Positions 5,301 to 32,414 of a stretch of 64,000 nt of DNA are shown here, in pieces. Position numbers and translations under genes: made by a program. Origin of the DNA: Mustelus asterias (taxonomy: Eukaryota); the NCBI RefSeq assembly GCF_964213995.1, contig NC_135822.1, forward strand, positions 51,770,001 through 51,834,000. Direction: 5' to 3'. The notes under the pieces were generated by a model that did no database searches, had not been told where the DNA came from, and saw only the letters and a list, made by a program, of their open reading frames with translations. Position 1 is the first letter of the stretch; each line of letters opens with the position of its first letter.

Positions 5301-6007
5301 GCATGAGACGCAAAAACCCAGTCTGCAGGTGCAACAGGTGATTAAGAAGGAAAATGGGATGTTGGCCTATATCGCAAGGGGGATAGAATATAAAAGCAGA
5401 GATGTCTTGCTGCATCTGTACAGGGCATTGGTGAGGCCGCAGCTGGTATACTGTGTGCAGTATTTGTCCCCTTATTTGCGGAAGGATATATGGGCCTTGG
5501 AGGGAGTGCAGAGAAGGTTCACCAGGTTGATACCAGAGATGAGGGGTGTTGATTATGAGGAGAGATTGAGCAGATTGGGTTTGTACTCGTTGGAATTTAG
5601 AAGGCTGAGGGGGGATCTTATAGAGATCTATAAGATAATGAAGGGGCTGGATAGGGTAGAGGTGGAGAGAGTTTTTTCCACATAGAAAGGAAGCTAGAAC
5701 TAGCGGGCAGAGCCTCAAAATAAAGGGGGGTCAGTTTAGGACAGAGTTGAGGAGGAACTTCTTCTCTCAGAGGGTGGTGAATCTCTGGAATTCTCTGCTC
5801 ACTGAAGTGGTGGAGGCTACCTCGTTGAATATGTTTAAATCACGGATAGATGGATTCCTGATCGGTAAGGGAATTAGGGGTTATAGGGGTCAGGCGGGTA
5901 AGTGGAACTAATCCACTTCAGATCAGCCATGATCTTATTGAATGGCGGGGCAGGCTCGAGGGGCTAGAAGACCTATTCCTGCTCCTATTTCTTATGTTCT
6001 TATGTTA
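2340..6007 (+). mobile_element. Near-full-length decayed CR1 LINE: ORF1 esterase part plus ORF2 (APE endonuclease and RT)
   Basis: ORF1 motifs VIGDS, CCLPGA, HIGAND, DGLRLN (2440-2950); ORF2 pieces 3000..3542, 3549..3824, 3825..4583, 4552..5685 (LNARS, ITETW, NYRPVSL, KFADDTK); stops near 3540 and 3822, frameshift in the A-run near 4570; (TTCTTATG)n tail at 5988-6007. Confidence 0.95.
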
Positions 6008-6261: not shown

Positions 6262-6573
6262 AAAATTTGCAGTTACGACTGTCCGATGGTGGAAGCAGAT
6301 GTGCTGGACGAGTGGAGGTTTTATATCGTGGAGAGTGGGGCTCAGTGTGTAACGATGATTGGGAAGACAGTGACGCAGCAGTCGTATGTAGACAACTCGG
6401 TTGCGGCAATTCCTTGGATGAAGGGCTCATTTCTTCTGGAGCAGGATCGGGGCCAATTTGGTTGGATGATGTGCAGTGCTCTGGTGAGGAACCATTTCTA
6501 TGGAACTGTTCCGCAAATCCCTGGGGACAACACGACTGTGGACATGATGAAGATGTGAAGGTCATGTGTTCCG
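6262..6573 (+). CDS. SRCR domain exon 1 (8 Cys)
   Basis: ttaacag|AAAATTTG...TCCG|gtaaga; [26 protein letters not shown]...EDVKVMCS. Confidence 0.97.
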
Positions 6574-9500
6574 GTAAGAACATATTAGAATTGCGCCTTT
6601 CCGCGGTCTGATCGCCCATGCATTTTCAGGAAGACGCCGAGCATGTTATAATTAATCAGGGCTGTATTAATTTGAAAATAACTGGTGTTATATTAATTTA
6701 TTGTTGCTCAGATCACATAATTCCCAGATTACAATCCGGATTTTCCAAATGCTTGGGGATACTGGAGATTAATAAGGGTGCAACCTGGGAAAGAGTTTGT
6801 GATCTTCACTGGGATTGGAATGACGCTCAAGTGGTCTGCGCACATCTGCACTGCGGTGTCGCGCTGCCGACGCCAGCACACACATATTTTGGAGAGGGCA
6901 CTGGACGTAGACGGAGCCACAGCTTCGAGTGCAAAGGAAACGAGACAAACCTGAATGACTGTCCTCTGTCTCCAGTAAATCACCACGAGTGCAGCCACGG
7001 GAACGATGTCGCTGTGGCATGTTCTGGTATGTAAACCACATTGAATGGCAGATAATCCACGGACCCCTTAATCATTGGAAAACTGAAGGAAGTAAAATAT
7101 CTGTTCTTCTCTCTAAGTTGGCCAAATGTAAACTCATGGTTACGGTTCAATTATATCTTTGGACGGACGTTACAAAACATCCCGATGTACTTAGAAATGA
7201 TAATTGTATAAGATTCAACTTTTCCTGCATAAATACAGTTGCGTTGCAAATTAATTTCTAATCTGCAACAAAAGTCGGCTTCTCTTGCACATTCCGATAG
7301 AAAATTGGTTATTAAACATCTCACTATTCTGGCGTTAAAGTTGATTGATTAGTCACAAGTCGGCTTGCCTTAACACTGCAACTAAGTTCCTGAGAAAATC
7401 CACGAGTCGCCATTCTCTGGCGCCTGTTCGTCTACGCTGATGCCAATGCACCTAATCGGCATGTCATTCAGATTGTGGAAAGAAACCAGAGTACGAGGAG
7501 GAAACACACGCAAACACGGGGAGAAAATGAGGAATCTGCACGGACAGTGGCCCAAGTCGCAAATTGAGCCAGGGTCCCTGGCACTGTGAGGCAGCAGTGC
7601 TAACCACTGTGCCACACTAACCGTAGTCATATTATGAACTTCAGGGATAGGTAAATTAAACCAACACTGCTTCATGAATTTGATTACCTTCTTATTTTTA
7701 GGGAGGGCATTCCGGAACTTTGATTGACCAAATTGTGCCTGTGTGAGTAAATACCATTTACAGTTGTTATTTCAAAATCGTTGAGCTTCCTAACGAACCA
7801 AATTACAAATATATTCGCTCCAGAGAGCAGCACTTCAAGAGAGACATGTTGAATCACTTTCGCAGGGAAAAGTAGGGAGGATGAATACATGCAATAGGTC
7901 CAAATATGGCGACAGGCTTCAGGCCAAGAGAGTGGCTTCCTGAACGGCACTGTCGAGATTACCGACTTCGGGACTCTGTGCAAATATACTCTGTCTGGAA
8001 GTTGGCAGCAAGGCTACTGGTGTTTTTAGACCAAAACTGGGATGACTGGATAATCGCTTCCTCACATTTATATTGAAGCCCCTTTGGATAGAGATCAATT
8101 TACATTTTTTTAAAAATCCCTGTGGAAGTTTGCACTGCGAGTCTTGTAAACATAATGCTAGAGAATATGTCATTCCATCCGTAAGACTCCTTACCTCATT
8201 TCGTTTTGTCCTTTTATTCAATTTCTTATGATGAGATTTGTGGTAACTCATTTCGTTATGTTTTTACCTAAAACAGGAAACAATGGACCCCGATTGGTTG
8301 GTGGAGAGGACAGGTGCTCCGGCCGGGTGGAAGTACTGCATGGAGAACACTGGGGGACGCTCTGTGATGTTTACTTTGATTTAGAGGACGCCAATGTGGT
8401 CTGTCAGCATCTTCAGTGTGGAACGGTAGAGACAATCCTGAGAAATGCTCATTTTGGGAATGGAACAGGTCCCATCTGGAAGGAAAACTACAGATGCCGC
8501 GGGAATGAGTCCCGGTTGGAGGATTGCCCTCTTTCATCCGGGGAAAAGTTCAACTGCTCACACTTGAATGACGCCGGTGTCATCTGCTCGGGTAAGTTCC
8601 CCAATCATTACACTCAAAGAAGCAGAATCACAGTCTGTGGAACCCGCACAAAGGGAGGGTACACTGTCCACCGTGCCCCTGTTGGTGTTTTGCAAAAGTA
8701 ACTCAACCAATTTCACATCCCGCAATTTCCCCAGAAATTGTCTTCTGAAAGATTAATCTGTATCCATCAGATTCCCACACAATGCTTTCCAGTCCAATCC
8801 ACCCGCTGCAATGAAAAAGTGAAACAACGTTCCCTTCAGCCATCTGGACATTGTCACCGCCTTAATTCTGCGCGCAGCAATTCTCGTACTCTCCCCCAAC
8901 GCCACCGATTTAATTTGCCTATTTGCTGCATCCAAATGGCTCAGTATTTTGGACAATACATCATACCTCCTTCTCACCGTCCTTGAGGAAGAACTGTCCC
9001 AGCATCTCTAATCTTTTAAAGAAACGGTGAATACTCATCTGTGGAACATTTCTTGCGAATTGTTGATACACCTTTTCTATTATACTCAGATTGCATCTGA
9101 TGTGTGGTGCCGTGAAATGGCCGAGCTGCTCCAATTGATGGCTCACTAATGTTTTATACAGGATTATCACAAATTCCGTACCTCTGCATTCTCTGACCTT
9201 TCGTGTAGGCCGAGGTTACCATTGGTTTTATAAAGTAATTTTACAACTTGCCCTTCCATCCTCAGTGATTTCTGCACGTTCTGTAAAAAGTTATCATACA
9301 CTTTTAGAATTGATCTGCTATTCTTTCTTTTCCTCTGCTCATTCGTCGTGAGTCATCTTGTTTCACTTGCCTGGCCTTTCGTTTTTAAGTCATAAGTTCT
9401 GCTTCAAGTTCCACATTCAGGATAGTCACAGAAATCTTAAGTCTGACACTGCAGTGCATCACTAATGGAATGTTTCACTTCAGTATATATCAGAAGAGAG

Positions 9501-12500
9501 AGAAAGTAAACCTCTATCCAACTTCTCGAGGGAGAATAATTATTGTAATATATTGGGAAACGCAGGGCAGATATCCCGGCTATCAGGCCAACAGTATCCC
9601 TTGGTCAACATTAAGAATGCACATTCTCTGGATATTGTGCCTTTGTTCCTTGTGGGAGTAAGTTATTTTCAACTTGCCTGCTGCGTTTCTGATATAACAA
9701 TAGTGGCTCAACTTCAATCTGTGCATCTGTCACAACATTGTCCGTTAAGGCATCTAATGGTCATTGAACTCATTATATTATGAAGACTTACTTAAATTCC
9801 CACAAAATAGAATCAATTGATGTTCTCCTGTGCCCATTTTTAGCTGTCCTTTTGAATCCATTCCACTAGTCAATCTATGTCCTTGTGAGGGTTGTGCTCT
9901 CTACTGTTCACAGAACTACAACGTTTTGTGTAATTCGCACACTTTGAATCTGTTCTTCGTTACATCCAAGCCTGGATCATTCGTATCTCTGATGAAAAGC
10001 AGAACTGCTGGACCTCATCCATTTGGAAAGTATCCCTTGTTTCATTTTTAAATTAGAAAGCGATGTTGGTCAACTCTGCCAAGTGTTTCCAGTCAAACAG
10101 CCAAATTTACATTATTACAACCAATGTCCTTCTGATTACGTAGGTTTGCCGATAATCCTTTGTGAAACATCATCAGATGTATTTTGGGAGTCCAGGAACG
10201 CCACATCAATTATATTGTCTTCATCAGCAATCTCTGTTCCGTCGTCACCAACTCGAGCTCAGTAATAAGATATGATTGCCCCCTTTAGAGTTATTGCTGC
10301 TTTAAATTTTAGTTATCAAATTGACTGTCTCTTTCCAATTATCATTTATAACCACGTTCGCATTTGTCAATATTCAACTGAGTGATCTGTGGGAACAACA
10401 TTTATATGCATCATTTCTTGAGGAACAGAACAATATGTTCAAATCTCCTGTCAGAGGCAGGTAAGAATGACTGGATCATTTTATAACATATAGAATAGAA
10501 ACTCATTGAATCCCTACAGTGAAGAAGGAGGCCAGGTGGCCCATCGAGGCTGCTTCGACCACAAGTCGCAACCCAGGCCCCATCCCCACTTAATCTGCAC
10601 ATCTTTGGACTGTGAGAGGAAACCGGAGCACCCGGAGGAAACCAACGCAGACTCGGGGAGGACGCGCAAACTCCACATAGACAGTGACCCAAGTGTTAAC
10701 CGTTGTGTCACCATGCCGCCCTAATTATGGTCAATATCTTGCAATTTCCACTCTTACTTTGGTCAGATGCCTTGGAATGAATTCATATGTTCAACTGTCT
10801 TCTCACCTTTAATATCAGTCAAGCTAACTGATGCGTCTGCTTTTTAAACTTCTACTCAATAAAACTTTCATCTCCCTCAGTTGCACCAATATTGAGCAGC
10901 ATCTGCTTCCTTGCCAGAAACATATTCAAATATCCGCTTAGCACCTGAGCAATCTTCCCAGGCTCTCGGCGTGCATGTCCATTCTACTCTGCCTTATTCA
11001 CAATTACTTTATTCATTCGGGGAACCTCTGGAGTTGCTTACGTGCTCCTGTGCGTGTTTGAGGAACGTCCTCATCAGCATCACAGAACCAAAGTGGCCAT
11101 CTTCGTCTACACATTACCAAAATTGTTCAGCACACTGTAATTTCAAATAACTCTCCTATAAATCAACGTGGGCCTTCTTAAACTCACTGGTTACTCTGAC
11201 CCCAAGTGATATCACAATACTTCTTCCTGCGGTGCCATCTGCCTTTTGCCAGCTCTCTGCACACACTGTTTTTGTCCCAGTATTGCTTACTGCTTCACAA
11301 TTCCCTGCTACATTAGTACAAGCCCACTCCAATAGAAATAACAAAGCAATTGATATATCAGTCCCGGCTTTGTTCATCTGCAACACATTGCAAATGCAGT
11401 TTCTTTCTCTGCAAAATCTGCTCCAATGTCCCAGGTCACGCCTTCCATCACGCACAATCTCTAAAGCTGCACATTCATTTGTTCAAACCTGTTTTTACGC
11501 CCTGCTTGCCAGACTCATCTTATGTTCATTAAACACCACACAAAGGAATGTATCCCTCTTTTAACTCATGCTCTTAATCCAAACATGGAAAAGGAATTCT
11601 GGCTTTCAACCTCCCACTTCAGATTAAAGAGATACCTTCGAGTGAAATCATTCACTTTCGCAACAAAGATACAATATTTCATTTAGAATTCTACCCTGTT
11701 GGCGGATGTCTTAATATGGCTACATTTGCTAAACTTTAAATATATTAGTGATTTTTTTAATCATGCAGATGCAATTTTCTCATTGCGAGTGTCGAATGGG
11801 GGAAGTCGGTGTGATGGACGAGTGGAGATTTACTACAACCACAGCTGGGGCAGAGTGCAGGACAGCCAATGGGATATGAATGACGCGAATGTGACCTGTA
11901 GACAGCTGGGCTGTGGCGCAGCGGTAGCGGCCTATAACAACTCAAAGTATGGAGAGGGTGAAGGGCCTGTTTGGGTGAATGATGTCCAATGTGAAGGAAA
12001 CGAATCACATCTCTGGAACTGCAGCACATTCACAATGAACCCGCATCGCAGTGACAACATCGGCGTCGGGGTTCTGTGCTCAGGTGAGTAAGGAGTTCTG
12101 TCTCACTGCAACATACGGAGACATTGCTGGTCTTGCGTTTAGTGGGAAGAAGAGTGAGGTGCTTGCAATTTTCAATATTCACGTCGTTTAACAGGGGCGG
12201 TTGATTGCAGATTAAGAGGAGACGTAACAAACTGAAGAACAAACAGCAAGAAAAATTGCGTGGCGCCTTTAGCAACGAATACACTGTTATGTCGCGTTAG
12301 ACAGTTAATTCAGGTTGACCCAAAAAAGAAATACTGTCACTGTGACACACATATTCATCAGATGGCGAGGAAAAAAGAATAGTGCACCTAAGTATGGGGA
12401 AGAGATTCTCCTTACGGAGGAAATCCAAATTTCTGTCTTAATGGTTCTGGGCAATGCCAGGTAGACAGATGTGATGCAAGGTCAAAGTGACCTAAACTGT

Positions 12501-15500
12501 TAATGTTTTGGATGACATTGTTGACGGGGAAGTGAGATGGAACGATTATATGCACTTGACCAGGACAATGCCAATGTAAAGTTATTTTTCATTGTTGGAG
12601 AAGGCAAAGCAGGAAGAGGCTGGGGAAGAGCGTGCAAGGTGTTCACATATGCAAATTGATACACTTCATTGAACAAAATTTGTTTCAATTCAGTACTATG
12701 GTGCTTGCCGCATTATCGCTATAAACTGTTTGCCTGTNNNNNNNNNNNNNNNNNNNNNNNNNNNNNNNNNNNNNNNNNNNNNNNNNNNNNNNNNNNNNNN
12801 NNNNNNNNNNNNNNNNNNNNNNNNNNNNNNNNNNNNNNNNNNNNNNNNNNNNNNNNNNNNNNNNNNNNNNNNNNNNNNNNNNNNNNNNNNNNNNNNNNNN
12901 NNNNNNNNNNNNNNNNNNNNNNNNNNNNNNNNNNNNNNNNNNNNNNNNNNNNNNNNNNNNNNNNNNNNNNNNNNNNNNNNNNNNNNNNNNNNNNNNNNNN
13001 NNNNNNNNNNNNNNNNNNNNNNNNNNNNNNNNNNNNNNNNNNNNNNNNNNNNNNNNNNNNNNNNNNGCTGGAAAGAGTGCAGAGGAGATTTACCAGGATG
13101 CTGCCTGGTTTGGAGTGTCGGTCTTATGAGGAAAGGTTGAGGGAGCTGGGGCTGTTCTCTCTGGAGCGGAGGAGATTGAGGGGAGACTTAATAGAGGTTT
13201 ATAAAATGATGAAGGGGATAGATCGAGTGAACGTTCAAAGACTATTTCCTCGGGTGGATGGAGCTATTACGAGGGGGCATAACTATAGGGTTCATGGTGG
13301 GAGATATAGGAAGGATATCAGAGGTAGGTTCTTCACGCAGAGAGTGGTTGAGTTGTGGAATGGACTGCCTGCAGTGATAGTGGAGTCAGACACTTTAGGA
13401 ACATTTAAGCGGTTATTGGATAGGCACATGGAGCACACCAGGATGGTAGGGAGTGGGATAGCTTGATCTTGGTTTCAGATGAAGGTCGGCACAACATCGT
13501 GGGCCGAAGGGCCTGTTCTGTGCTGTAATGTTCTATGTTCTATGTTCTATGTTCTATCTGCTGTCTATCTATCTGTCTGTCTATCTATCTATCGGTCCAT
13601 CTGAGTGCCTCTCTATCTATGTATCAATCTCNNNNNNNNNNNNNNNNNNNNNNNNNNNNNNNNNNNNNNNNNNNNNNNNNNNNNNNNNNNNNNNNNNNNN
13701 NNNNNNNNNNNNNNNNNNNNNNNNNNNNNNNNNNNNNNNNNNNNNNNNNNNNNNNNNNNNNNNNNNNNNNNNNNNNNNNNNNNNNNNNNNNNNNNNNNNN
13801 NNNNNNNNNNNNNNNNNNNNNNNNNNNNNNNNNNNNNNNNNNNNNNNNNNNNNNNNNNNNNNNNNNNNNNNNNNNNNNNNNNNNNNNNNNNNNNNNNNNN
13901 NNNNNNNNNNNNNNNNNNNNNNNNNNNNNNNNNCTGTCTGGCTATCTGGCTATTTGTCTACCTATCAATATATCTCCGGTCCATCTATCCATTTATCTAT
14001 CTCTCGCCCTCTCACTGCCTCTACGATCCCCCCCCCCCCCACCCCCCACCCCCACCAGTCATCGGAATACACAGATATTATTCCAATATGTGGATTTAAC
14101 ATTTATGAGATGGAGGTGGCCACTGGGCCATCGAGCCTGCTCTGCTTGCTTACGCTTCTTTACCCTTAGAGGAAGAAAGTTCAATGATTCACGACACTCA
14201 GTCAGAGAAAAACAAAACTCCTCAAATCTACATAAATAAGTGTACCATTAATTTTTCAAAATCCTCACATTTCTAGATTCGCCCATATGTGCAAATATCC
14301 TCTCCATGACGATATTATATGAAAGCATTGATGAGCCTTCGAGCAGCAAATGCATTGAGTTATTCGTGAAGGTTACTGTCATCTGTCTGCACAGATTCAG
14401 TCAGACCCTCTGATCATTTCGAGCAAATCTCTGATTTTACTCATATGCATTAGCGAGTATGGAGAGAACTGGTGAAATGCGCATGATCAAAACGTGCAGA
14501 GACAAGGGAAAGAACAAAACGGCATAGAAAGACAGTTCAATTGGAATGTTTATTAAGAACAATTGTAGCTGATGGTGAAATTGTGCACAAAGCATAAAGC
14601 CCCAAATATTAAACTGCAAGTCAAAATATCGCTGAAGTCAGGTGCAGGAATATTATAATTATCTGTACTCTCTACAGTCTTCATTTTGGTCATGTCTAGT
14701 AAGATGTTCTAACTCATTGATCAATTTAACTGTTAGTGTTGGGGAGAAAGGATTTTCGTTCTGCGCACATTATGCAATATTTGAAATTGAGTGATGAGAT
14801 ATGTATTAGGACTACAGTGTTTTTTCGCTATTTTCTTTGCTGTCAGAACACAAGCAGTTAAGACTTTCGGACGGTGGAAGTTCTTGCGCTGGTCGAGTTG
14901 AGATTTATTACAATGACAAATGGGGCTCCATCTGTGATGATTCCTGGGATGCAGCGGATGCTCAAGTGGTTTGTAAACAGTTGGGTTGTGGTGATGCATT
15001 GCAACTGCCACTTCCTGCTTCATGTGGACCAGGTATCGGGGCAATTTGGTTGGATGAGTTGGATTGCATCGGGAACGAATCTTTTCTCTGGAATTGTCCC
15101 TCAGCTTCATGGGGAAAACATGACTGCTCTCATAAAGAAGATGTCAAGGTCATGTGTTCAGGTAATGGCGATCTCAATCTGTTAATTATCCTAAAAAACT
15201 GAGCAAAGTTACAGCAAAAAATATATTTCACTGAATTATTGAGAGAGAGCAGAAATAGAACAGAAACTGCCAATTCGGCCCTCCTCGTTTGCATGCCAAG
15301 ATACCATTTAATTGGCCCCCTATCTATATTTCTTTGGTTCTTTATTTTCACCCCTACGTACTTTGTTCTTAGATGATTATGCCACATTGAAGAGAGACAT
15401 AGACTCTGGAAATTTACGTGATGCATGATTCTGTATAAGTGGATGCTTTTTTTCTGATCGCACATTTAACCTGTCATTTACCAAGGAGTATGAAAACTCT

Positions 15501-18500
15501 TTAATCTTTATTCTGCAATTCCCGATCTGAGACTGATCAGGACAAAATTAATTTGTCATCTACAAACCCATTTTTAAAATGTTTGTTTCCTTGTATTTTT
15601 GTGCAGCCTGCATTAGCATTTAATATGCATATCAATTTTCTGTCTGTGATACAGCTTGACATTTTACTTCCGATTGAAGGTCCATCTGGCTCACATTAAT
15701 GCCAAATAGCAGTGAGGACAGGACCAATCCATGTGAACACTTCATCCCAAATTCTGTAATTCGAAATAACTATTTGTGTTGCAGCCAATAGTCAATCAGT
15801 TGTTCTCGCGATCCCCATATTTTGCATTCACTGAACTGAGTCAAAATATGGAACTTTGTTGAATACCATTAGTTAATTCACGCACATCATTTTTACTTCA
15901 TTTCCCTGGCTGACCCTCCGGTAACATTATCAAATCATCCAAGGAGGAAGATCATACAATTGTTTGTTTAGTAATCCCTTGTCGAATGTTCTTGATGATA
16001 TAATTAGCTTGCAGCTCTCTTCCTGCTAACTTTCTGAAATAATCTCGGCAAACCTTCTACACAAATGATGAAAAACTGAATTTGTAATCGACAGAGCACA
16101 AAGAGTTACGCTTGGTGAATGGCAATCATCGCTGCGAGGGGAGAGTGGAAGTGTTTTACAATGGTGCCTGGGGAACAGTTTGCTCAGAGAACCTGGATCG
16201 CCATGATGCAGAAGTGATCTGTAAACAGTTACAGTGCGGCGTCCAAGTTTCCATTGACGATCGCGCTCACCAATTCGGAGAAGGATCCGATCCGATTTGG
16301 CTCGATGAGATTGAATGTGGTTCACACGAATCGACAATTTGGCAATGTCTGTCAGACCCGTGGGGCCAACACAACTGTCATCATTGGGAAGACGCAGGTG
16401 TTGTCTGTTCAAGTAAGACAGTATGTTTTTCAGTGTTAAGGTGTCATCACAAACATTGATATCTATTTGAATCAGCATGATTCTCTTCTTAACAGAACCC
16501 AAAGCAACAGAGGTCGAACGCTACAGTTCAAGGCAGTGCAGTGGTCAAGCAGGTGTTTACTGCTCTTTATTATTTTTACATTGTTGAATTGTGCTCCTGA
16601 GTTTTAATATGGATACATTAACGATTGATCTCGTTGACAGATTCTGGGCTAAGTTTGCATCTGGTTGGAGGTAACACTAAGTGTTCCGGCAGAGTGGAGG
16701 TACTGTGCAATAATACCTGGGGCATGGTATGTGATGACTCCTGGGATATCGCCGATGCCAATGTTGTATGCAGACAGCTGAATTGTGGCCCGGCACTTCT
16801 TGCCTCAGGTGGGGCCATGTTTGGCATGAGTAACACTGCTGTCTGGCTTGATGAGGTGAAGTGCACCGGAAGTGAATCCATTCTGTCTGACTGTACTTCC
16901 GCATCTTCAACTCAACCTGATTGTAATCATAAAGAAGCTGCCAATGTGATTTGCTCCGGTAAGTTTACTGCTTAATAAATGATTTTCGTCGCTGTGCGTG
17001 GAAGAGTGCGAGGTCATTTTAAAGCTGGATATAACTCTTCGTAAATTTAGAATATAGTTTCTATTTCAAGGAAATTCATAACATTTGATGTATTTTTTTG
17101 TGTTATCTATTCCATTGGGCCAGAATTGCCGCAGACACCTTCGTCCACACCTGCAGGTACTTAGAATCAAAACATACTATTCGTATTAACGTCAGTGTTC
17201 TTGCTTCTGACGTCTGTCTCCTTGACACTTTCTCGCTGTTGATAATTTCTGAAGATTACATGTGTGGTTTCAGAACTATGGAAACATTAAAAAATATAAG
17301 TGGGAGTCGCAGTGTTAAATCATCCTCGAACTTTTCATTCAGGACAGGAAGCGAAAACCACAAACGTCCCAGTCGTAATCTGCATAACCCTGGGGATCAT
17401 GTTAATCTGTGCATTGATCGCACTACTGTTGGTCCTGCGAAAGAACTCAAAAAGAAAAGGTGAGGCGGAAATCTTTCCCCCGAATTAGCATTGGAGCTCT
17501 GATATTGAGTCATTGCCAAGCCAGTCGTCAGCTGATTGGCCAATTCAAGAGAATGTCACTTCTCCTTTTTCGAAAACAATTTTAAGAATCTGAATAAGGT
17601 TTTCCTCGTTGGTTTTAATCAACTTAATCGTCCAGTCTTATTATATGACAATTAAAATGTAGAGTTTATTAAATATCCAAATCCAATGTTACAGTTAGTC
17701 TGCTCTGGTGAGACACCAGATGGATTTCCTTCTTTTCTGAGGCAGGACGTTCCATTAAACCGTTCGGCTCCTGTGTTCAGTTAATTTTTCGGCAATTAAT
17801 CTTCCTTTATCCAATGAGTATCCATTCCACTGGTGCAGGTTTTCGGCACTGATTTCAACCTCAAACTTCCTGATCGGGTTCCATCCACCATTCTGAGAAG
17901 TAACACTTTTATAGGATTTCCTGCATTTGTCAGTGATTATTCCACCTCATAAGATAACGATTACTGTCACATTCCAACAAACAACGACCTCCTCTTCCAT
18001 GTACAGAACAAAACTGTTCCCATTCTGATGTGTCACCAACCATCAATAACACACTGTTATTGCAACCTGACACTGCCAGCGGAGATCAAAGTGTCTGCCA
18101 GAATTGTCACGTCCGTCACCAATACATTTACTAACATTGAATTAAATCCAACTTTTTTCTTATGTGAGTTCTGCTTTGCTTTACATAAATATATGCATCT
18201 ATTCAGATATTCCCTCTCTCTCGTACAATGATACAAACAGCAATATGTATAATCACACTCTCATACAAACACATACATATACACACCGACATATTCACTG
18301 CCTCACTTGCACGCAGACACATAGACTTTTCTTTCTCTCTTGCTCGCTCTTGCACAGAAACAGCAAAAATACTACTTTTCCTCATGCGCACACATGAACA
18401 CACTAACTTCACACGCTCAGAGACGCTTCCTTTCACTATCTTTCTCTATCTCTTGCTCGCTCTCGCACAAGCACAAACACACCAATATGAACGCACTTCA

Positions 18501-21500
18501 TCTGTCTCTCAAACAAATATAACATTGCACTGAAACAATATTTCACTTGCACGAAGGCATAAGTTCTGTCTCTCTCTCACTCACTCTCGCACTCTCTCTT
18601 ATCTTCCAGTCTGCCTCTTTGTGTCTCTCCTCTCTCTCTCTTTCTCGAACTTAAGCAGCAACATACACACTCGCACTCACACTCATACACACGCAAACAG
18701 TAACGTAATAACTCTCTCGCACATGCACCATCTCAATCAGTCTAATTTGCTTTCGCTTCGGAACACTAACACCAAAATACACATACCCTCTCGCTCACAC
18801 ATGCTGACTCACTTGGAACATTAGTTCCATGTTTCACGTTTTTCAGTCTCTATGTGGCTTTGATCCACTTTCTCTCTCTCTCTCTCCATTTCTCAATCTC
18901 TCTCCCTCCTCCTCTTTTCTCCATCTCACAGACACACAGGAACACATATGCAGCTATGGACCTGCGCAATCAAGCTGAATGTCTTCGTCCATTGGTTACC
19001 ATTTCATTTGTGATTTCATTCACAAATACAAAAGGTGGCACAATGCAGCAAATGAATGCTCCACCTTCTCTCCAACAGGAGCTTCCAGTGGGCATTGGGG
19101 TTCACCGATCGGCTTGTACCAGACAATTTATGAGGAGATTGACAATATTTCGCGTAGAGAAGATTCAATCTATACTCATCGTTCAGGTTTGTATTTTCAG
19201 TTTGATATGCACCATGCATTGGACAAGCAGCACTTTCGTCTTAACCCAGTTAAATTTCCCCATATGCAGTAGTGATATCTCAGTGTCCGGGTGCAGACTA
19301 AGAAGAATAATGGAAGTTCTGAAAACTGCTACTGTTCATTTTTGCTCAAAGGGAGTTTTATGACACAGTTATTTGTAAGTAGCGACATGCTGTTTGTTAG
19401 TATTTCCCGTTCCACAGCCAAATGACTCCCTGAGGTTTCTGAGCCAGTGAACAATGCATAGTGCACACATTCAATGTCATACACTTGCAAAATTGGCTCA
19501 GAATTTCCAAAGGCATTTCAACAGACCTACTTTGAATATATTGTTTGCGAATATAATAGTGGAAGACAGATTTAATCGAATTGTTAAACACAGTGATTTG
19601 GTATGACAAAAGTAAATAAAAACATTGGTGCAGAATAATGACGCCATCATAAGCAAACAAAATGAAAAGTGATTGTTACCAGATGGATGGGATTTAGAAT
19701 TAAAGCGGTTACGCAGAACTTCCAACCCAATATTAGTTAGGTTACACGTAGAATATTATCAAAACCGATGTAAAATCACAAGAGTGCAATGATACAACCC
19801 AGTTTGACATCAGGAGGGCTGAAGGGTGGAAAACAGATATGATTTGATATTGATTTTCCGACTCGGACGCAGTTTAGCTGACAGACCGTCGAGTATTGCG
19901 CCTCGGGTCACTAGTGACGATTCAAAACCTCAGAAAGTACAAGAGATGGTGCGTCCTGAAGCCTGGGAAGTATTCTGCACAAATCAAGTCAATCAAAGGA
20001 TTTTGGCGTAAGCGGTTATATCTGAAGTTATATTATCTTTTCTGATATATGATAAACTGCCGTTCCTAATGGGATGTACTTTAACCCAGCCAGTTCCAGA
20101 TCAGCAGCGAAATGTATTGTTTACCTTTATTTGTCCTGATGCAGTGGTGCTGAGTCTTCCGCTTTTCAAAATGAATTCGCACGGTGACTGTTTTCCAAAA
20201 ATGGTGTCAGGAAGCAAATCTGCCCTCCGGGAGATTATCACATGAATTTATTATGATTTCTACTCAAACATATACAATGTTTCTGTGCTGTGTTCCAATA
20301 TAGTGTTTCTGGACCGTCAATCTCACCAATGGTCATTCGTTTTATTTTGTTTTTAACAGTTCCTGCTTCCATTGATTCCCTGAATCAGGTGGTGTATTAC
20401 ACCAGGAACCGTTTGAGTGACACGGATCCTGCTTCAGAAAATCCTCAAGGGGACCCCTGCAGTGCTCACGGTGAGTGGATTCTCACTTTCTCGGTGTTGA
20501 GCTTCCAATCCCAATTTGAAATTTAAAAAAATGAAATATCAAAAAGTGCAATGATCCAGATAACGGAGAATATTTTATAACGAACGATCGCTGAATGAAT
20601 TTCATACAGATCGTCCCCAGTTGTAAACAGGTATGTCACATGCAAGTTGTGGTGTGTCGTTCCATGAATTGGGAAGTGAAATGTGCGTGCAATTAAAAAT
20701 AAATTGGACCTCATCATCACTGGGCTTGACCAAATGTTATTGTCCATCAGCAATTGTCCATGCTTGGCCCTTTTAGAGGGCATTCAAGAGTAGATCTCAT
20801 TGTTGTGCATCTGGAGTAACATGTATGGCAGTCAAATAAAGGTGGCAAATTTCTGTCGTTCAAGGGACAGCAATGAAGCACGTTATTTTATGGCTGAAAA
20901 TCACAGAATATCCTCATTCTACTTTTAATTCCAGTAAATTAGTGCAGTCAAATTTCAGTATTTGCCATGTAGTGCTTCGAAACCCATCGATGCCCAATGT
21001 GAAGTAATGCATTTTGGAAGATCTAATACAGATAGGAAATACACAGTAAATGGCAGAACCCTTAAGAGTATTGATAGGCAAAGAGATCTGGGTGTACAGG
21101 TACACAGGCCACTTAAACTGGCAATGCAGGTGGAGAAGGTAGTCAAGAAGGCATATGGCATGCTTGCCTTCATCGGCCGGGGTGTTGAGATAAAAAATTG
21201 GCAAGTCAGGTCACAGCTTTATAGAACCTGAGTTAGGCCGCACTTGGAATATAGTGCTCAATTCTGGTCGCCACACTACCAGAGGGATGTGGTGGCTTTG
21301 GAGAGGGTACAGAAAAGATTTACCAGGATGTTGCCTGGCATGGAGGGCATTAGCTATGAGGAGAGGTTGGACAAACTTGGTTTGTTCTTATTGGAGCGAC
21401 GGAGGTTGAGGGGAGACCTGATAGAAGTCTATAAAATTATGAGAGGTATGGACACAGTGGATAGTCAGAAGCTTTTTCCCAGGGTGGAAGAGTCAAGTAC

Positions 21501-24500
21501 AAGGGCACATAGGTTTAAGGCGCGAGGGGCAAGGTTTAAAAGAGATGTACGAGGCAGATGTTTTACACAGAGAGTGGTGGGCGCCTGGAACTCGTTGCCG
21601 GGGGAGGTAGTGGAAGCGGATACGGTAGTGACATTTAAGGGGCGTCTTGAGAAGTAGATGAATGAGATGGGAATAGAGCCATATGGTCCCCGGAATGGTA
21701 GGGGGTTTTAGTTAAGTCGGGCAGCATGGTCGTTGCAGGCTTGGAGGGCCGAAGGGCCTTTTCCTGTACTGTAATCTTCTTTGTTCTTTGTTCTTTGACC
21801 TTGGGGCTCGACATAATGATTGAGTGATAATATCAATCTGCTAACGTCGCTCGACATTTGCTCTGCCAACTTCAGTTGTTCGCACTGTTGTCTCACAGTG
21901 TCAGGGAACCAGGTTCAATTGTGGCTCGGATGCTTGTCTGTGTAGAGTTTACACGTTCTCCCCGTGTTTGCGTGGTTTTCTACCAGGTGCTCCGGTTTCC
22001 TTCTGCAGTCCAAAGATGTGCAGTGCAGTTGGATTGGCCATCCTCTATTTTTTCTTAGTGTCCAAAATTGTGGAGATTAGGTGGATTAGCCATAGTCAAT
22101 ATGTCAGGTTCCGGGGAGAGGGAGGGTAAGATGCTCTTTCAGAGAGTTGGCGCAGATTCGATGGGCCGAATGCCTTCCTTATGCTCTATTGAAATTCTCT
22201 GATTTCACGACTCATTGGGATCCAGTAAGGATAAAACATGAAATAAAAATACCAAGGCGAATTGCACAACGATTTTCCGTCCTCTAAACTTGAAAGTGAA
22301 GATCACAATCGATCAACATTCTCTCTCTGCATTTGCAGAGTGGACTAATATTTTGCCCGTCCATTCTAATTATTAATAATGGAACTCGCTCCAGTGAAGA
22401 TCATTATTTCCTCCTATGTCCATTTCCAGGTCTGGATGATGATGTTGAGACAGGATCCATTGACTCCCAGCGCAGACACATGCTTCTCGATTGCACTGCT
22501 GATGATCATTCAATGCTGACGATTGGTGGTGCCAATGTTTCCACTCTCGGTGAGATAAACCATTGATTATTTCTGCAGCCAAGTGCTCACAGTGGAATAT
22601 ACTGACGCGATGTTGAAATTAATTACATATGGTCACAGCACAGAATGCCATTAAATGTCAGATCCTGCTTTAATTATACAAAATTATATTCCACAACCAA
22701 TTAGTGGATCCAGAAAGTAGGTGATCCCCTGTTCAGAGTGAGGTATCTCCTTGTTAAGACCGCGAACAGGAAATTCTTCCAGTGCTCATTTTGAGCCTCC
22801 TGACCCTGGTGATCCAATCTCCCGTCATCCAGTTGGACAACACATCATGGTCCTGGATGCTCCTTCATTCTGACAGCAACAAAAATCCACCCCTTATATT
22901 ACTGCCATGGGTATCATGTCTGAGCACCATTTAACACACAGTCTGCTCTTTAGAAATCCAGTAGCTCATTTATCTCTCCCCCCTCCCAGCCCCCCCTCCC
23001 CCCCCCACCCCCTTCACCCAGTATGAAACAATCAGGCTTGCTTGCATTCCTCTTTACCGGTTTTAATTTCCAGCTGCCAATTAACAATTACCCCGTGCAG
23101 GTTGTAATTATATACGATGCCTGTTTGGATCAGATTGAAACTTGTTGAACATAGAACATAGAACAGTACAGCACAGAACAGGCCCTCCGGCCCACGATGT
23201 TGTGCCGAGCTTCGTCTGAAACCCAGATCAAGCTATTTCCTCCCTATCATCCCGAAGTACTCCATGTGCCCATCCAATAGCTTCTTAAATGTTCCTAAAG
23301 TTTCTGACACCACTATCACTGCAGGCAATCCATTCCAAACCCCAACCACTCTCTGAGTAAAAAACCTACCTCGGACATCCTTCCTATATCTCCCACCATG
23401 AACCCTATAGTTATGCCCCCGAATTACCACTCCATTCACCCGAGGAAATAGTCTTTGAACGTTCACTCTAGCTATCCCCCTCATCATCTTATAAACCTCT
23501 ATCAAGTCTCCTCTTAACCTCCTCCGCTCCAAAGAGAAAAGCCCAAGTTCCCTCAACCTTTCCTCATAAGACCGACACTCCAAACCAGGCAGCATCCTGG
23601 TAAATCTCCGTAGCACTCTTTCCAGTGTCTCCACATCCTTCTTGTAGTGAGGTGACCAGAACTGCACACAATATTCCAAATGTCGTCTCACCAAGGTCCT
23701 GTACAGTTGCAGCATAACCCCACGGCTCTTAAACTTAAACCCCCTGTTAATGAAGGCCAACACACTATAGGCCTTCTTCACGGCTCTATCCACTTGAGTG
23801 GCAACCTTCAGAGATCTATGGATGTGAACCCCAAGATCTCTCTTCCTCCACATTCTTCAGAACCCTACCTTTGACCCTGTAATCCACATTTAAATTTGTC
23901 CTACCAAAATGAATCACCTCCCATTTGTCAGGGTTAAACTCCATTTGCCATTTTTCAGCCCAGCTCTGCATCCTATCTATATCTCTTTGCAGCCTACAAC
24001 AGCCCTCCACCTCATTCACTACTCCACCAATCTTGGTGTCATCAGCAAATTTACTGATCCACCCTTCAGCCCCCTCCTCCTAGTCATTTATACAAATTAC
24101 AAACAGCAGAGGACCAAGCACTGATCCCTGTGGCACTCCGCTGGTAACCGGTTTCCAGTCCGAAAATTTTCCATCCAACACCACCTTCTGTCTTCAGTTA
24201 GATAACCAGTTACCTATCCAATCGGCGAAACTTCCCCCTATCCCACACATCCTTACTTTCTTCATAAGCCGACCGTGGGGGACTTTATCAAACGCCTTAC
24301 TAAAATCCATGTATATGACATCAACTGCACGAGCTTCATCAACACACTTAGTTACCTCCTCAAAAAATGCAATCAAATTTGTGAGGCAAGACTTGCCCTT
24401 CACAAATCCGTGCTGACTAACCCGGATTGAGCTGCATCTTTCTAAATGGTCGTAAATCCTATCCCTAAGGACCTTTTCCATCAACTTACTGACCACCGAA

Positions 24501-25751
24501 GTAAGACTAACCGGCCTATAATTACCAGGGTCATTTCTATTCCCTTTCTTAAACAGAGGAACCACATTCGCCACTCTCCAGTCCTCCGGCACCACCCCCG
24601 TGGACAGTGAGGACGCAAAGATCAATGCCAAAGGCTCTGCAAACTCATCCCTTGCCTCCCAAAGAATCCTAGGATATATTTCATCAGGCCCAGGGGACTT
24701 ATCAACTTTCAGTTTATTCAAAATTGCTAGTACATCTTCCCTCCGAACATCTACTTCCTCCAGCCTATCAGCCTGTGACACCATCTCTTCCTCAAAACCA
24801 TGGCCCCTCTCCTTGGTGAACACCGAAGAAAAGTATTCATTCATCACCTCTCCTATCTCTTCTGACTCCATGCACAAATTCCCACTGCCGTCCTTGACCG
24901 GCCCCAGCCTCACACTGGTCTTTCTTTTATTCCTCACATAAGAGTAAAAAGCCTTGGGGTTTTCCTGGATCCGACCCGCGAAGGACTTCTCATGCCCCCT
25001 CCGAGCTCTCCTAAGCCCCTTTTTCAGCTCATTTCTTGCTAACTTGTAACCCTCCATCGAGCCAACTGAACCTTGTTTTCTCAACCTAACATACGCTTCC
25101 TTCTTCCTCTTGACGAGACATTCCACCTCTTTTGTGAACCATGATTCCCTCACTCGGCCATTTCCTCTCTGCCTGGCAGGGACATACCTATCAAGGACAT
25201 GCGGTATTTGTTCCTTGAAAAAGTTCCACTTATCATTAGTGCCTTTGCCTGACAATTTTTGTTCCCATCCTATGCTTCCTAATTCCTGCCTGATTGCATC
25301 ATAATTACTTCTCCCCCAATTGTAAACTATGCCCTGCCGTATGGCCCTCTCCCTCTCCATTGCAATAACAAAAAACACCGAATTGTGGTCTCTATCTCCA
25401 AAGTGCTCTCCCACAACCAAATCCAACACTTGGCCCGGCTCATTTCCCATTACTAAATCCAATGTGGCCCCACCTCTTGTCGGCTTATCCACATATTGTG
25501 TCAGGAACCCCTCCTGCACACACTGCACAAAAACTGCCCCATCCGAACTATTCGACCTATAAAGGTTCCAATCAATGTTTGGAATGTTAAAGTCCCCCAT
25601 GACGACTACCCTCTGACTTCCACACCTATCCATAATCTGCTTAGCAATTTCTTGCTAAAGTTCCCTTTCTCTCTCAATCCGTCCTCTCCCCCCGCTCTTT
25701 TCAGGTAAAATTGAGCATCAACACCAGGAGGCGCCATCCTCAGACATATGA
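6262..25751 (+). CDS. Group-B SRCR type-I membrane receptor, CD163/WC1/SCART-like, 5'-partial (13 exons, about 914 aa in window)
   Basis: Exons 6262-6573, 6712-7026, 8277-8591, 11769-12083, 14847-15161, 16095-16412, 16641-16958, 17124-17156, 17343-17459, 19079-19186, 20360-20470, 22430-22549, 25705-25751; all introns GT-AG and phase 1, all internal exon lengths multiples of 3, no internal stop on joining. Confidence 0.85.
6712..7026 (+). CDS. SRCR domain exon 2 (8 Cys, divergent)
   Basis: gctcag|ATCAC...TCTG|gtatgt; [16 protein letters not shown]...CGVALPTP...DVAVACS. Confidence 0.95.
7345..7622 (-). mobile_element. HE1-like V-SINE variant
   Basis: Reverse complement GTGGCACAGTGGTTAGCACTGCTGCCTCACAGTGCCAGGGACC; 3' part shared with the copy at 31383-31680. 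Confidence 0.85.
8277..8591 (+). CDS. SRCR domain exon 3 (8 Cys)
   Basis: aaacag|GAAAC...TCGG|gtaagt; [26 protein letters not shown]...DAGVICS. Confidence 0.97.
9398..9780 (+). mobile_element. Old SINE resembling LF-SINE
   Basis: Colinear blocks CTGACACTGCAGTGCA, GCAGGGCAGATATCCCGG..GGCCAACA..TATCCCT, TTGTGGGAG, CTGCTGCGTTTC..ACAATAGTG..ACTTCAA match the LF-SINE consensus as recalled. Confidence 0.55.
10489..10725 (-). mobile_element. HE1-like V-SINE with internal deletions
   Basis: CACATCTTTGGACTGTGAGAGGAAACCGGAGCACCCGGAGGAAACC is the antisense V-domain; ATAGAAT-type tail. Confidence 0.85.
11769..12083 (+). CDS. SRCR domain exon 4 (6 Cys, lacks C2 and C7)
   Basis: atgcag|ATGCA...TCAG|gtgagt; [27 protein letters not shown]...VGVLCS. 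Confidence 0.95.
12738..13066. other. Assembly gap (329 N)
   Basis: N run; right flank begins inside a CR1 RT 3' region. Confidence 1.
13067..13555 (+). mobile_element. CR1 LINE 3' end (young subfamily)
   Basis: [14 protein letters not shown]...GRFFTQRVV; (TTCTATG)n tail; highly similar to 23149-23620 (-) and 61975-62452. Confidence 0.95.
13556..14003. repeat. (TATC/TGTC)n microsatellite spanning a 302-N gap (13632-13933)
   Basis: Tetranucleotide repeats on both sides of the gap, continuing from the CR1 tail. Confidence 0.85.
14847..15161 (+). CDS. SRCR domain exon 5 (9 Cys)
   Basis: tgtcag|AACAC...TCAG|gtaatg; [18 protein letters not shown]...EDVKVMCS. Confidence 0.97.
16095..16412 (+). 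CDS. SRCR domain exon 6 (8 Cys)
   Basis: cgacag|AGCAC...TCAA|gtaaga; [26 protein letters not shown]...EDAGVVCS. Confidence 0.97.
16641..16958 (+). CDS. SRCR domain exon 7, membrane-proximal (9 Cys)
   Basis: tgacag|ATTCT...TCCG|gtaagt; [23 protein letters not shown]...CGPAL...AANVICS. Confidence 0.97.
17124..17156 (+). CDS. 33-nt Pro/Ser/Thr linker exon ([11 protein letters not shown])
   Basis: ggccag|AATTG...GCAG|gtactt, phase 1 at both ends, frame-preserving, stalk-like composition. Confidence 0.7.
17343..17459 (+). CDS. Transmembrane exon
   Basis: cattcag|GACAG...AAAG|gtgagg; [24 protein letters not shown] followed by the basic stop-transfer RKNSKRK. Confidence 0.92.
18200..18950. repeat. 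Degenerate (CA)n/(CT)n low-complexity tract
   Basis: Interleaved ACAC and TCTC runs in the intron between the TM and first cytoplasmic exon. Confidence 0.75.
19079..19186 (+). CDS. Cytoplasmic exon 1 with YQTIYEEI motif
   Basis: ccaacag|GAGCT...TCAG|gtttgt; [36 protein letters not shown]. Confidence 0.85.
20360..20470 (+). CDS. Cytoplasmic exon 2
   Basis: ttttaacag|TTCCT...CACG|gtgagt; [37 protein letters not shown]. Confidence 0.8.
20992..21798 (+). mobile_element. 5'-truncated CR1 LINE
   Basis: CEVMHFGR...[18 protein letters not shown]...; (TTCTTTG)n tail. Confidence 0.95.
21880..22205 (+). mobile_element. HE1-like V-SINE
   Basis: tRNA-like head, V-domain, GATGGGCCGAATG tail. Confidence 0.8.
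22430..22549 (+). CDS. Cytoplasmic exon 3
   Basis: tttccag|GTCTG...CTCG|gtgaga; [40 protein letters not shown]. Confidence 0.75.
23149..25653 (-). mobile_element. Young 5'-truncated CR1 LINE (endonuclease C-half plus RT), antisense in the last SRCR intron
   Basis: 479-aa ORF 24194..25633 ([25 protein letters not shown]), then 23816..24019 and 23233..23853; (CATAGAA)n tail at 23149. Confidence 0.97.
25705..25751 (+). CDS. Putative terminal coding exon ([15 protein letters not shown])
   Basis: Long polypyrimidine tract 25660-25704 ending in CAG, phase-1 compatible, TGA at 25749-25751, U-rich downstream sequence with ATTAAA at 26108. Confidence 0.55.
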
Positions 25752-31680: not shown

Positions 31681-32414
31681 TTTAAAAAAAAAAATGGCGT
31701 TCTTAAGGAAGGAAGTTTTGAATCCGTGCAGATTCTGATCCAGGAATGAATGATCACAAAACGGAAGTGCAACTGCCGTTGGTATTGGGATGAATCTGAA
31801 GAGTGAAATGTCAATGGCGACATCAGAATTTGTTGACAATCCGGTATGTGGATGTATCTGGTCCAGGAAGGAACTGGAACTAAAAAAGACCGATCAAGAA
31901 TCCCCAGATGGTCTGCAAATTTGAGATATAAAAGCAGCTGTGAATGTCCAAATATGTGAACGGTCAGCAACCGAGGATGGAGTGAAACTAGGGAGAGCAG
32001 GAAAATGGGACGGATGTGGAAACCATTGGGTGCGCGCCTCGGGAGTTTGTGAACTTGGGTACGGTACGAAGCTGAGAAGATTTTTATTCTGAGGTGTTCA
32101 GGAATATGAACGTCCAATATTTGGTTGAGGCGGATGGTGGTGTTAATCGCTAATTCCCAGTGTCTTATTGTGGCGTGTTCGCTCTGAGGAGAAAAAAAAG
32201 ACTGCTACTTATATTAATAGCTGGAAAACGATTTCCTTCAGACACGCAAAGCCTTATTAAAACAAATATAGATATGCCACGGTTATGGTTTGCTCCAAGC
32301 TACAATATATGTTTGCTTTTTTTTGGTGCTGAAACCCTCTTCTTGCTGTGTGGCTCGGATGCTGAGAACTGTTTGTAGTAATTTCTGGTTTATTTTTGTT
32401 TCTCACTCTCACAG

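What the first reader, a model, noticed from the sequence alone, without database searches (positions are those of the whole stretch)
6262..25751. Shark CD163/WC1/SCART-like SRCR receptor with a complete signalling tail
Seen: seven one-exon SRCR domains, a stalk, a TM beginning [10 protein letters not shown] and a multi-exon tail of about 135 aa with five tyrosines, all in one frame. Known: this layout is that of WC1/SCART (gamma-delta T-cell co-receptor and pattern receptors) rather than secreted DMBT1, which has CUB/ZP domains that are absent here. Inference: a cartilaginous-fish WC1-like lymphocyte co-receptor that automated pipelines would likely label only 'DMBT1-like'.
Basis: partly seen in the sequence, partly recalled or inferred. 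Interest (0 to 1): 0.72.

Follow-up and report, generated by a model that had tools for sequence, protein, structure and literature searches.

The report
Shark WC1/SCART-type immune receptor variant
This is an intact shark gene, partly confirmed as spliced, for a cell-surface receptor of the CD163/WC1/SCART family and one of dozens of copies in its genome; it likely binds microbes and likely helps switch on immune cells as WC1 does on cattle gamma-delta T cells, but which shark cells use it is untested.

Summary
Observation confirmed and extended. Seven SRCR exons, stalk, TM and a 135-aa, five-tyrosine tail lie in one frame. Contigs of one run are spliced S5 to TM and T2 to T3; the joins around the YEEI exon were not seen. 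Layout is d*-b/c-b/c-n-d-e-linker-d', the SCART-type cassette, with a WC1-like four-exon YEEI tail; not DMBT1. It is neither WC1 (its tip is a copy of shark domain d, not domain a) nor CD163A. It is a minority subtype: 3 d-tipped loci against 59 n-type exons, and it has lost a second family tyrosine (YDDV to DDDV). Domains d and d' keep CD163's oligomerisation Lys-Glu. RefSeq already names this gene M130 (CD163)-like, although its twin and most paralogues are named DMBT1-like. T-cell co-receptor function is inferred only. The scan found this family three times before in other shark genomes; my ten paper searches found no description of it in sharks, but one relevant paper was not held. A new member of a known kind.

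The parts
6262..6573 (+). SRCR 1, type d* (8 Cys; a copy of the shark d domain in the tip position, without the Lys-Glu site)
   Evidence: trees 40, 71, 93; AU 71, 72; motif 81
6712..7026 (+). SRCR 2, b/c clade
8277..8591 (+). SRCR 3, b/c clade (closest to b; best CD163 match is SRCR5)
11769..12083 (+). SRCR 4, six-Cys domain lacking C2 and C7; n-type by position and Cys pattern
   Evidence: no mammalian SCART1 sequence was on hand
14847..15161 (+). SRCR 5, type d, with Asp-Asp and Lys-Glu as in CD163 SRCR7; left out of the RefSeq model, spliced to S6 in a contig
16095..16412 (+). SRCR 6, type e
16496..16552 (+).
16641..16958 (+). SRCR 7, type d', with Asp-Asp and Lys-Glu as in CD163 SRCR9
17124..17156 (+). 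Stalk exon (11 codons, Pro/Ser/Thr-rich)
17343..17459 (+). Transmembrane exon with basic stop-transfer stretch
   Evidence: helix 697-726 of P0001
19079..19186 (+). Tail exon 1 with YQTI-YEEI, the WC1/SCART-type tyrosine motif; not covered by the spliced contigs
   Evidence: no cover
20360..20470 (+). Tail exon 2 with conserved YY
22430..22549 (+). Tail exon 3; acceptor lies 12 nt downstream of the one used by paralogues, and DDDV stands where relatives have YDDV/YDDA
25705..25751 (+). Tail exon 4, coding part to the stop; 3' UTR follows

Best explanation
The locus is an intact gene for a 960-aa single-pass receptor of the CD163c/SCART-WC1 branch of the CD163 family, likely used by leukocytes, and likely T cells, as a pattern-recognition co-receptor. 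Shown: reading frame, splice sites, domain types and order, tail motif, family size, six splice junctions. Inferred steps: (1) the outer SRCR domains bind microbial or other polyanionic ligands, as WC1 domains bind Leptospira (PMC8356672); (2) domains d and d' of neighbouring molecules pair through their Lys-Glu and Asp sites in a calcium-dependent way, as SRCR7 and SRCR9 of CD163 do (PMC11685794), giving avidity; (3) on clustering with an antigen receptor, a Src-family kinase phosphorylates YEEI, the counterpart of the YEEL that WC1 needs to boost T-cell activation (PMC2906472). This copy is a minority subtype with a d-derived tip and one tail tyrosine fewer, so its ligand and output would differ from the a-tipped majority.
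For: Frame and sites. Splicing: five GT..AG joints (S5-S6, S6-linker, linker-S7, S7-stalk, stalk-TM) and a loose end from T2 reading into T3, in run X3, with no differing letters in the S5, S6, S7 and T4 pieces, although the twin differs by about 4%. Domain trees: S2 and S3 in the b/c clade with CD163L1, WC1-like and turtle domains (100/99*), S4 with six-Cys turtle, sturgeon and coelacanth domains (100/99*), S6 with e (100/97*), DMBT1 domains apart (98/87*); the same clades, with weaker support for n, e and d' under the mixture model (91/96, 92/93, 94/89). SCART is m-l-b-c-n-d-e-d' with n lacking C2 and C7. YEEI fits the published Y-(Q/E)-(D/C/E)-(I/L) motif and aligns with turtle, coelacanth and possum tails. 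Four tail exons after the TM exon match WC1 type I, not CD163A or CD163c-alpha (two exons). Multigene family like WC1: 59 of 65 matches to S4 at 56% identity or more. dN/dS 0.39 against the twin. Lys-Glu in 18 of 18 d and 16 of 18 d' domains and 0 of 70 other domains from 16 cartilaginous-fish proteins. Cod T cells with putative TCR gamma and delta transcripts express an m130-like gene (PMC9276791).
Against: No cell-type data. The YEEI exon has no cover in the one spliced run, TM-T1 and T1-T2 were not seen, and depth arithmetic puts 25 nt of intron in front of T2 in the T2-T3-T4 contig. All splice evidence is one run of one study, with contig depth about 6, and the run is not on record as RNA. 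AU tests do not reject grouping S5, S6 or S7 with DMBT1 (p 0.19, 0.095, 0.096). By score, S1 and S4 match single DMBT1 domains well (130 and 110 bits), and b versus c is unresolved. WC1 domain a is absent, and even the six-Cys tip of the paralogues joins WC1 a without a star (93/87, 90/82; open). Lys in both d and d' is, among human proteins, a trait of the macrophage receptors CD163 and CD163L1, while SCART1 has it in d only. YQTI and YEEI also fit the YxxPhi endocytosis pattern (general knowledge).
Confidence: 0.55

Rival explanations
1. Same family, but it works like CD163A or CD163L1: an oligomeric endocytic scavenger on macrophage-like cells, with the tyrosines serving as internalisation signals.
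For: Lys-Glu kept in both d and d', the pair that builds the CD163 trimer; CD163 is the best PDB match by sequence and fold (CD163 is also the only long family member solved); the tail tyrosines fit YxxPhi.
Against: No h-i-j-k arm: no window domain joins the N-terminal CD163L1 domains in the trees. CD163A's tail is YREM, two exons and unlike WC1/SCART tails. CD163A is single-copy and was argued to be eutherian; this gene has dozens of paralogues.
Confidence: 0.25
2. A modulatory or decoy member: the usual product lacks the YEEI exon or the TM exon (all exons are phase 1, so any can be skipped in frame) and dampens or diversifies the signalling paralogues.
For: YEEI exon uncovered and intron left before T2 in X3; second tyrosine lost; the RefSeq model skips S5 and a contig end at 12080 fits a join from S4 that skips S5; RefSeq models of the twin and of three other cartilaginous-fish proteins lack the TM; TM-less WC1 transcripts are known.
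Against: The YEEI exon keeps canonical sites here and in the twin, is in the RefSeq model and in nearly all relatives; stalk-TM is spliced; missing cover in a low-depth contig set is weak.
Confidence: 0.12
3. A recent duplicate on its way to decay, with little function.
For: Birth-and-death family: 2 of 59 n-type exons have stops, several sampled loci are broken; the twin has a TT donor after S5 and Cys or Trp changes; one ancestral acceptor is lost here.
Against: This copy has all sites canonical, an open frame, dN/dS 0.39 and spliced contigs; a catshark protein has the same d* tip (72% identity, 100/99*) and also lacks the second tyrosine, so the subtype is old.
Confidence: 0.05
4. A DMBT1/SSC5D-type protein of mucosa or epithelium.
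For: Database names of most relatives; 49-58% identity of S1 and S3-S7 to the cat, lemming and turtle DMBT1 repeat domains; AU does not reject S5, S6, S7 with DMBT1.
Against: TM and YEEI tail; AU rejects S1, S4 and S2+S3 with DMBT1 (p 0.0055, 0.012, 0.0003); the 3 DMBT1 domains checked lack Lys-Glu; no ZP match on this contig; seven unlike domains, not a run of near-identical ones.
Confidence: 0.03

Closest known systems
CD163c-alpha / SCART1-2 (m-l-b-c-n-d-e-d'; Herzig et al. 2010, PMC2906472)
   Same: Six membrane-proximal domains b/c-b/c-n-d-e-d', n lacking C2 and C7, an inter-domain exon, Y-(Q/E)-(D/C/E)-(I/L) motif
   Different: One d-derived tip domain in place of m-l; four tail exons, not a two-exon tail; Lys site in d' as well as d; dozens of paralogues
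WC1 (a-b-c-d-e-d-b-c-d-e-d'; PMC2906472, PMC2681482) and chicken a...c-n-d-e-d' hybrids
   Same: Multigene family, one exon per SRCR, linker exon, TM exon plus four tail exons, YEE(I/L) motif; most shark paralogues carry a six-Cys a-like tip (7 of 10 sampled loci)
   Different: This gene has no domain a, has domain n, seven domains, and lacks the second YDD(V/A) tyrosine of its relatives; gamma-delta restriction untested
CD163A (M130) and CD163L1 (M160)
   Same: b/c, d, e, d' domains; Asp-Asp and Lys-Glu oligomerisation sites in d and d' (PMC11685794)
   Different: No h-i-j-k arm, linker between e and d' rather than c and d, unrelated tail, not single-copy
RefSeq XP_078095342.1, 'SRCR type 1 protein M130-like' (P0001)
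   Same: Same gene; identical over the shared exons and tail
   Different: The model omits SRCR 5, which is spliced to SRCR 6 in X3; the name points to CD163A, not to the SCART/WC1 branch
Atlantic cod m130-like gene (PMC9276791)
   Same: Fish CD163-like SRCR receptor; expressed in T cells with putative TCR gamma/delta
   Different: Teleost gene, sequence not compared here; orthology untested

Membership tests
CD163 family (group B SRCR, class I scavenger receptors) | Tandem group B SRCR domains, one exon each, 8 Cys or 6 lacking C2/C7 | tested here: met
CD163 family (group B SRCR, class I scavenger receptors) | Domains of types b, c, d, e, d' with e-d' next to the membrane | tested here: met
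   b/c and e starred; d and d' grouped but not starred; b versus c unresolved
CD163 family (group B SRCR, class I scavenger receptors) | Type I membrane protein with signal peptide, inter-domain exon, TM and tail | tested here: met
CD163c-alpha / SCART | Domain n (six Cys) between c and d | tested here: inconclusive
   Position and Cys pattern met; clade with turtle, sturgeon, coelacanth domains; no mammalian SCART1 sequence was retrieved, so identity with n is by description only
CD163c-alpha / SCART | N-terminal domains m and l | tested here: not met
   Only one domain precedes the b/c pair and it nests among shark d domains (95/97*, 100/97*, 96/98*); m and l references were not available
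CD163c-alpha / SCART | Y-(Q/E)-(D/C/E)-(I/L) tail motif | tested here: met
   YEEI; splicing of its exon not seen
CD163c-alpha / SCART | Tail on two exons | tested here: not met
   TM exon plus four tail exons
WC1 | Diagnostic N-terminal domain a | tested here: not met
   AU p 0.016 against S1 with a; the reference is a muntjac protein taken as WC1 from its six-Cys repeats and c-d-d' end (my reading, the record is unnamed)
WC1 | Tail on 4-6 exons with a phosphorylatable YEEL-type motif | tested here: met
   four exons, YEEI; phosphorylation itself untested
WC1 | Multigene family | tested here: met
   59 n-type exons, 14 on this contig; some may be uncollapsed haplotypes
WC1 | [quoted passage not shown] | not testable with these tools
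   no cell-type data
CD163A / CD163L1 | Domains h-i-j-k (k diagnostic) and YREM-type tail | tested here: not met
   k reference is the seventh domain of rhinoceros M160, assigned by position
CD163A / CD163L1 | Lys-Glu and Asp oligomerisation sites in d and d' | tested here: met
   sequence motif only
DMBT1 | CUB and ZP domains, secreted, near-identical SRCR repeats | tested here: not met
   Pfam gives SRCR only for P0001; 0 of 117 ZP matches on this contig; CUB was not searched genome-wide; TM present
SSC4D / SSC5D | Domain grouping with SSC4D or SSC5D | not tested
   no trusted reference retrieved; both are secreted (recalled), this gene has a TM

The most novel reading that the evidence does not exclude
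The seven-domain x-b/c-b/c-n-d-e-linker-d' receptor with a four-exon YEEI tail is the jawed-vertebrate ancestor of WC1, SCART and CD163, already oligomerising through d and d'. Sharks expanded it to dozens of germline-encoded co-receptors on gamma-delta or NAR-TCR T cells, and the rare d-tipped, YDDV-less subtype seen here, shared by houndshark and catshark, is a dedicated modulatory subunit that co-assembles with the a-tipped receptors.
Probability: 0.2. Interest if true: 0.72.

Novelty: new member of a known kind. Interest (0 to 1): 0.42.

Why it matters
The published account of this family stops at chicken and platypus (PMC2906472: no mention of shark or zebrafish). A shark gene that joins the SCART cassette, the WC1 tail plan and the CD163 oligomerisation sites suggests that these traits were together before jawed vertebrates split and were later shared out among WC1, SCART and CD163. 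That makes an old question testable with shark single-cell data: did gamma-delta T cells have a pattern-recognising co-receptor family from the start? The gene itself is one annotated member of a large family, and databases hide most of that family under DMBT1-like.

Tried and rejected
Candidate 21-nt micro-exon at 20610-20630: rejected; it carries an in-frame stop, its donor is not kept in the twin, and X3 joins T2 straight to T3. My first by-eye suspicion of a frameshift in tail exon 2 was a misreading. Sequencing-run search: no RNA holder listed. First read-laying over the whole gene: the joint table was filled by repeats. Tail-only homologue search: 3 of 357 candidates, all sharks; too insensitive to reach tetrapods. 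Per-domain PDB searches: only S3 (CD163 SRCR5) and S5 (SRCR7) map to the expected CD163 domain; S1, S4, S6 and S7 also default to SRCR7 and S2 to SRCR9, so they do not type the domains. Complex prediction of S5 with S7: no verdict (score 0.04, mark 0.34, alignments not used); neither support nor evidence against. AlphaFold model of P0001 (pLDDT 65, pTM 0.27) and fold search: SRCR folds, a TM helix and a low-confidence tail, nothing beyond sequence. Protein atlas: three tries gave no result. Tail exon 3 of the third d-tipped locus (C64) was not found, so loss of the second tyrosine is shown for 2 of 3 d-tipped loci here. Redmond et al. 2018 on haptoglobin and CD163 is not held; the supplement of PMC2906472 could not be read. 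No SCART1, bovine WC1, SSC4D or SSC5D sequence was retrieved. Synteny was not tested.
Full report
1. Observation. I read bases 1-28000 and built the exon chain in scripts. All acceptors are AG, all donors GT, all internal exons are phase 1 to phase 1, and the frame is open to the stop at 25751; the tail has 135 aa and 5 Tyr. A profile built from non-shark SRCR domains finds 7 distinct domains in the window and none in 20 of 20 shuffles. The window is G000:C22:51770001-51834000 of a 3.68 Gb genome.

2. What was missed. [quoted passage not shown] It has the same tail, adds a 57-nt linker exon (16496-16552) and a 28-aa N-terminus, and omits S5. The N-terminus lies on two exons at C22:51761472 and about 51767402, before the window, both kept in the twin. 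No other SRCR exon was found in 40 kb upstream. With S5 the protein has 960 aa (855 + 105).

3. Splicing. Four runs of one study hold the stretch; none is on record as RNA. Contigs of X1 and X2 run through the introns. Contigs of X3 skip them: GT..AG joints S5-S6, S6-linker, linker-S7, S7-stalk and stalk-TM, and a loose end behind T2 that reads the start of T3. I infer that X3 is RNA. The listed S5, S6, S7 and T4 pieces have no differing letters, so they fit this copy and not the twin. Piece ends at 6711 and 25704 fit S1-S2 and T3-T4, and one at 12080 fits a join from S4 that skips S5; these three are inferred from coordinates, not listed as joints. Against: the YEEI exon has no cover; TM-T1 and T1-T2 were not seen; the depth of the bin before T2 (4.92) is matched if the T2-T3-T4 contig starts 25 nt inside the intron (4.92) and not if it starts at the exon (4.20). 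S2-S3, S3-S4 and S4-S5 were not seen either. So 6 of the 13 junctions in the window are shown, 2 are inferred and 5 are unseen.

4. Domain types. Herzig et al. 2010 (PMC2906472; abstract, passages, sections 5, 9, 10 and the first part of 6 read; supplement unreadable) define CD163A as h-i-j-k-b-c-d-e-d', CD163c-alpha/SCART as m-l-b-c-n-d-e-d' with n lacking C2 and C7, and WC1 as a-b-c-d-e-d-b-c-d-e-d'. From 123 stored homologues I cut 1327 domains, added the window's seven and built trees on hand-picked subsets of 116, 63 and 46 rows. References were rhinoceros M160, possum 'WC1.1-like', an unnamed muntjac protein read as WC1, and cat, lemming and turtle DMBT1; no SCART1, bovine WC1, CD163A, SSC4D or SSC5D sequence was on hand. 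S2 and S3 fall in the b/c clade (100/99*, 100/99*, 97/89*); S3 leans to b, and order b-c is neither shown nor rejected (AU p 0.28). S4 lacks C2 and C7 and joins six-Cys turtle, sturgeon and coelacanth domains (100/99* twice; 91/96 under the mixture model): n by position and pattern. S6 joins e (100/97*, 99/97*, 92/93). S5 and S7 group near d and d' without stars (89/84 and 98/76). S1 nests among shark d domains (95/97*, 100/97*, 96/98*); AU rejects S1 with WC1 a (p 0.016) and with DMBT1 (p 0.0055). AU also rejects S4 (0.012) and S2+S3 (0.0003) with DMBT1 but not S5, S6 or S7 (0.19, 0.095, 0.096). Eight AU tests were run and one in 71, uncorrected; domains are only 104 columns. Layout: d*-b/c-b/c-n-d-e-linker-d'.

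5. Tail. YEEI fits the motif that Herzig et al. found in all CD163c-like molecules and WC1, whose YEEL is needed to boost T-cell activation. It aligns with turtle (37% over 68 aa, pairwise E 1.5e-4), coelacanth, teleost and possum tails. WC1 tails have 4-6 exons (PMC2681482, passages), CD163A and CD163c-alpha two; this gene has four after the TM exon. Tail exon 3 starts 12 nt later than in a paralogue with alignable DNA, because the older acceptor is mutated, and reads DDDV for YDDV. In 10 hand-picked paralogous loci the exon was found in 9; 8 have Tyr there and the ninth, a broken gene, a stop. The catshark protein with the same d* tip also lacks it.

6. Family. S4 finds 65 matches (150 of 685 candidates scored); 59 are at 56% identity or more, 14 on this contig, 2 with stops; many others have identical scores on small contigs and may be recent copies or uncollapsed haplotypes. 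S1 finds only 3 of 74 matches at 70% or more: this gene, its twin and one on C64. Of 10 sampled loci, 7 begin with a six-Cys a-like domain, 1 with d*, 2 were not reached. Of 40 cartilaginous-fish protein models, isoforms included, 23 read a-b/c-b/c-n-d-e-d' with the linker before d'. Against the twin, dN 0.032 and dS 0.081 (66.5 and 49.5 changes), ratio 0.39; the twin has a TT donor after S5.

7. Oligomerisation site. In CD163, Lys811/Glu812 with Asp746 (SRCR7) and Lys1021/Glu1022 with Asp956 (SRCR9) build a calcium-dependent trimer; among human SRCR proteins the lysine is in CD163L1 domains 10 and 12 and SCART1 domain 6 (PMC11685794, passages). S5 aligns to SRCR7 with these residues in place. 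S5 and S7 have CDDS and HKE; the other five domains lack the lysine. In 16 cartilaginous-fish proteins Lys-Glu is in 18 of 18 d, 16 of 18 d' and 0 of 70 other classified domains. This is motif evidence only.

8. Mechanism. Most likely a leukocyte receptor that binds ligands with its outer domains, gains avidity through d-d' contacts and signals through YEEI when clustered with an antigen receptor (0.55). WC1 binds Leptospira and is phosphorylated by Src kinases on co-ligation (PMC8356672, passages). In cod an m130-like gene marks T cells with putative TCR gamma and delta (PMC9276791, passages and Discussion). None of these steps is tested for this gene. Rivals: myeloid scavenger (0.25), decoy or modulatory splice forms (0.12), decaying copy (0.05), DMBT1-like (0.03). 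Family placement alone I put at about 0.9.

9. Novelty. Ten searches gave no paper describing WC1/SCART-type genes in cartilaginous fish; for most hits I saw the listing only; PMC9207270 and PMC6238376 name CD163 only in a reference title; PMC8721182 was read in passages. Redmond et al. 2018, seen only as a title, may treat shark CD163-like genes and was not held, and subscription journals are mostly missing, so the claim is weak. The scan's own notes report this family three times in other shark genomes with the same reading (AI notes, not support; I had reached the reading before). What is added here: splice evidence, the d-tipped subtype without the second tyrosine, and the kept oligomerisation site. 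Verdict: real, a new member of a known kind, interest 0.42.

Noticed in passing
window 32366-33321 (+): Intronless rhodopsin-family 7TM gene split by one frameshift near 32790-32800 (Pfam 7tm_1 positions 2-126 and 125-260 in two frames). It resembles the GPR139/GPR142-like genes expanded in sharks (label recalled, not tested).
   Followed up: partly
window 51503-52444 (+): Second, more broken 7TM gene of the same kind (53% identical in the N-terminal half, stops and frameshifts, a short TA-repeat insertion).
   Followed up: partly
G000:C22:52746000-52788400 (-), L006-L010: Inverted twin about 1 Mb away, about 96% identical in exons, open frame but a TT donor after SRCR 5 and changes C692R, G361C, W66L; RefSeq names it DMBT1-like and models it without TM.
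   Followed up: yes
window 12083-16095: Probable skipping of SRCR 5: the RefSeq model omits it and an X3 contig ends at 12080, the cut expected for a join to S6, linker or S7 but not to S5 (12079). Skipping would remove one of the two oligomerisation sites.
   Followed up: partly
window 22418-22429: The acceptor used by paralogues is mutated here and in the twin; an in-frame AG 12 nt downstream is used, shown by the X3 loose end.
   Followed up: yes
window 6306-6338: S1 reads [11 protein letters not shown], close to the bacteria-binding peptide described for DMBT1 (recalled; the review checked did not contain it).
   Followed up: no
G000:C22:51882400-51892950 (L047-L048): Broken family member 50 kb past the window's end: damaged e and d' exons with a fairly intact TM and tail. 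An orphan tail-3-like exon lies at C22:52737706 (+).
   Followed up: partly
G000:C3:4.24-4.43 Mb and C5:147.1-148.6 Mb: Two further SRCR clusters with more distant domains (about 49-60% to S5; n-like exons at 50-52% on C3).
   Followed up: no
window 2952-5908, 13067-13530, 20950-21790, 23150-25650, 56917-58083 and others: Many decayed LINE (CR1-like, label recalled) copies; RVT_1 hits for 4528-5682 and 56917-58083; several lie in this gene's introns.
   Followed up: no
G000 contigs C19, C26, C200, C319, C540 and others: At least 117 ZP-domain matches in large tandem arrays.
   Followed up: no
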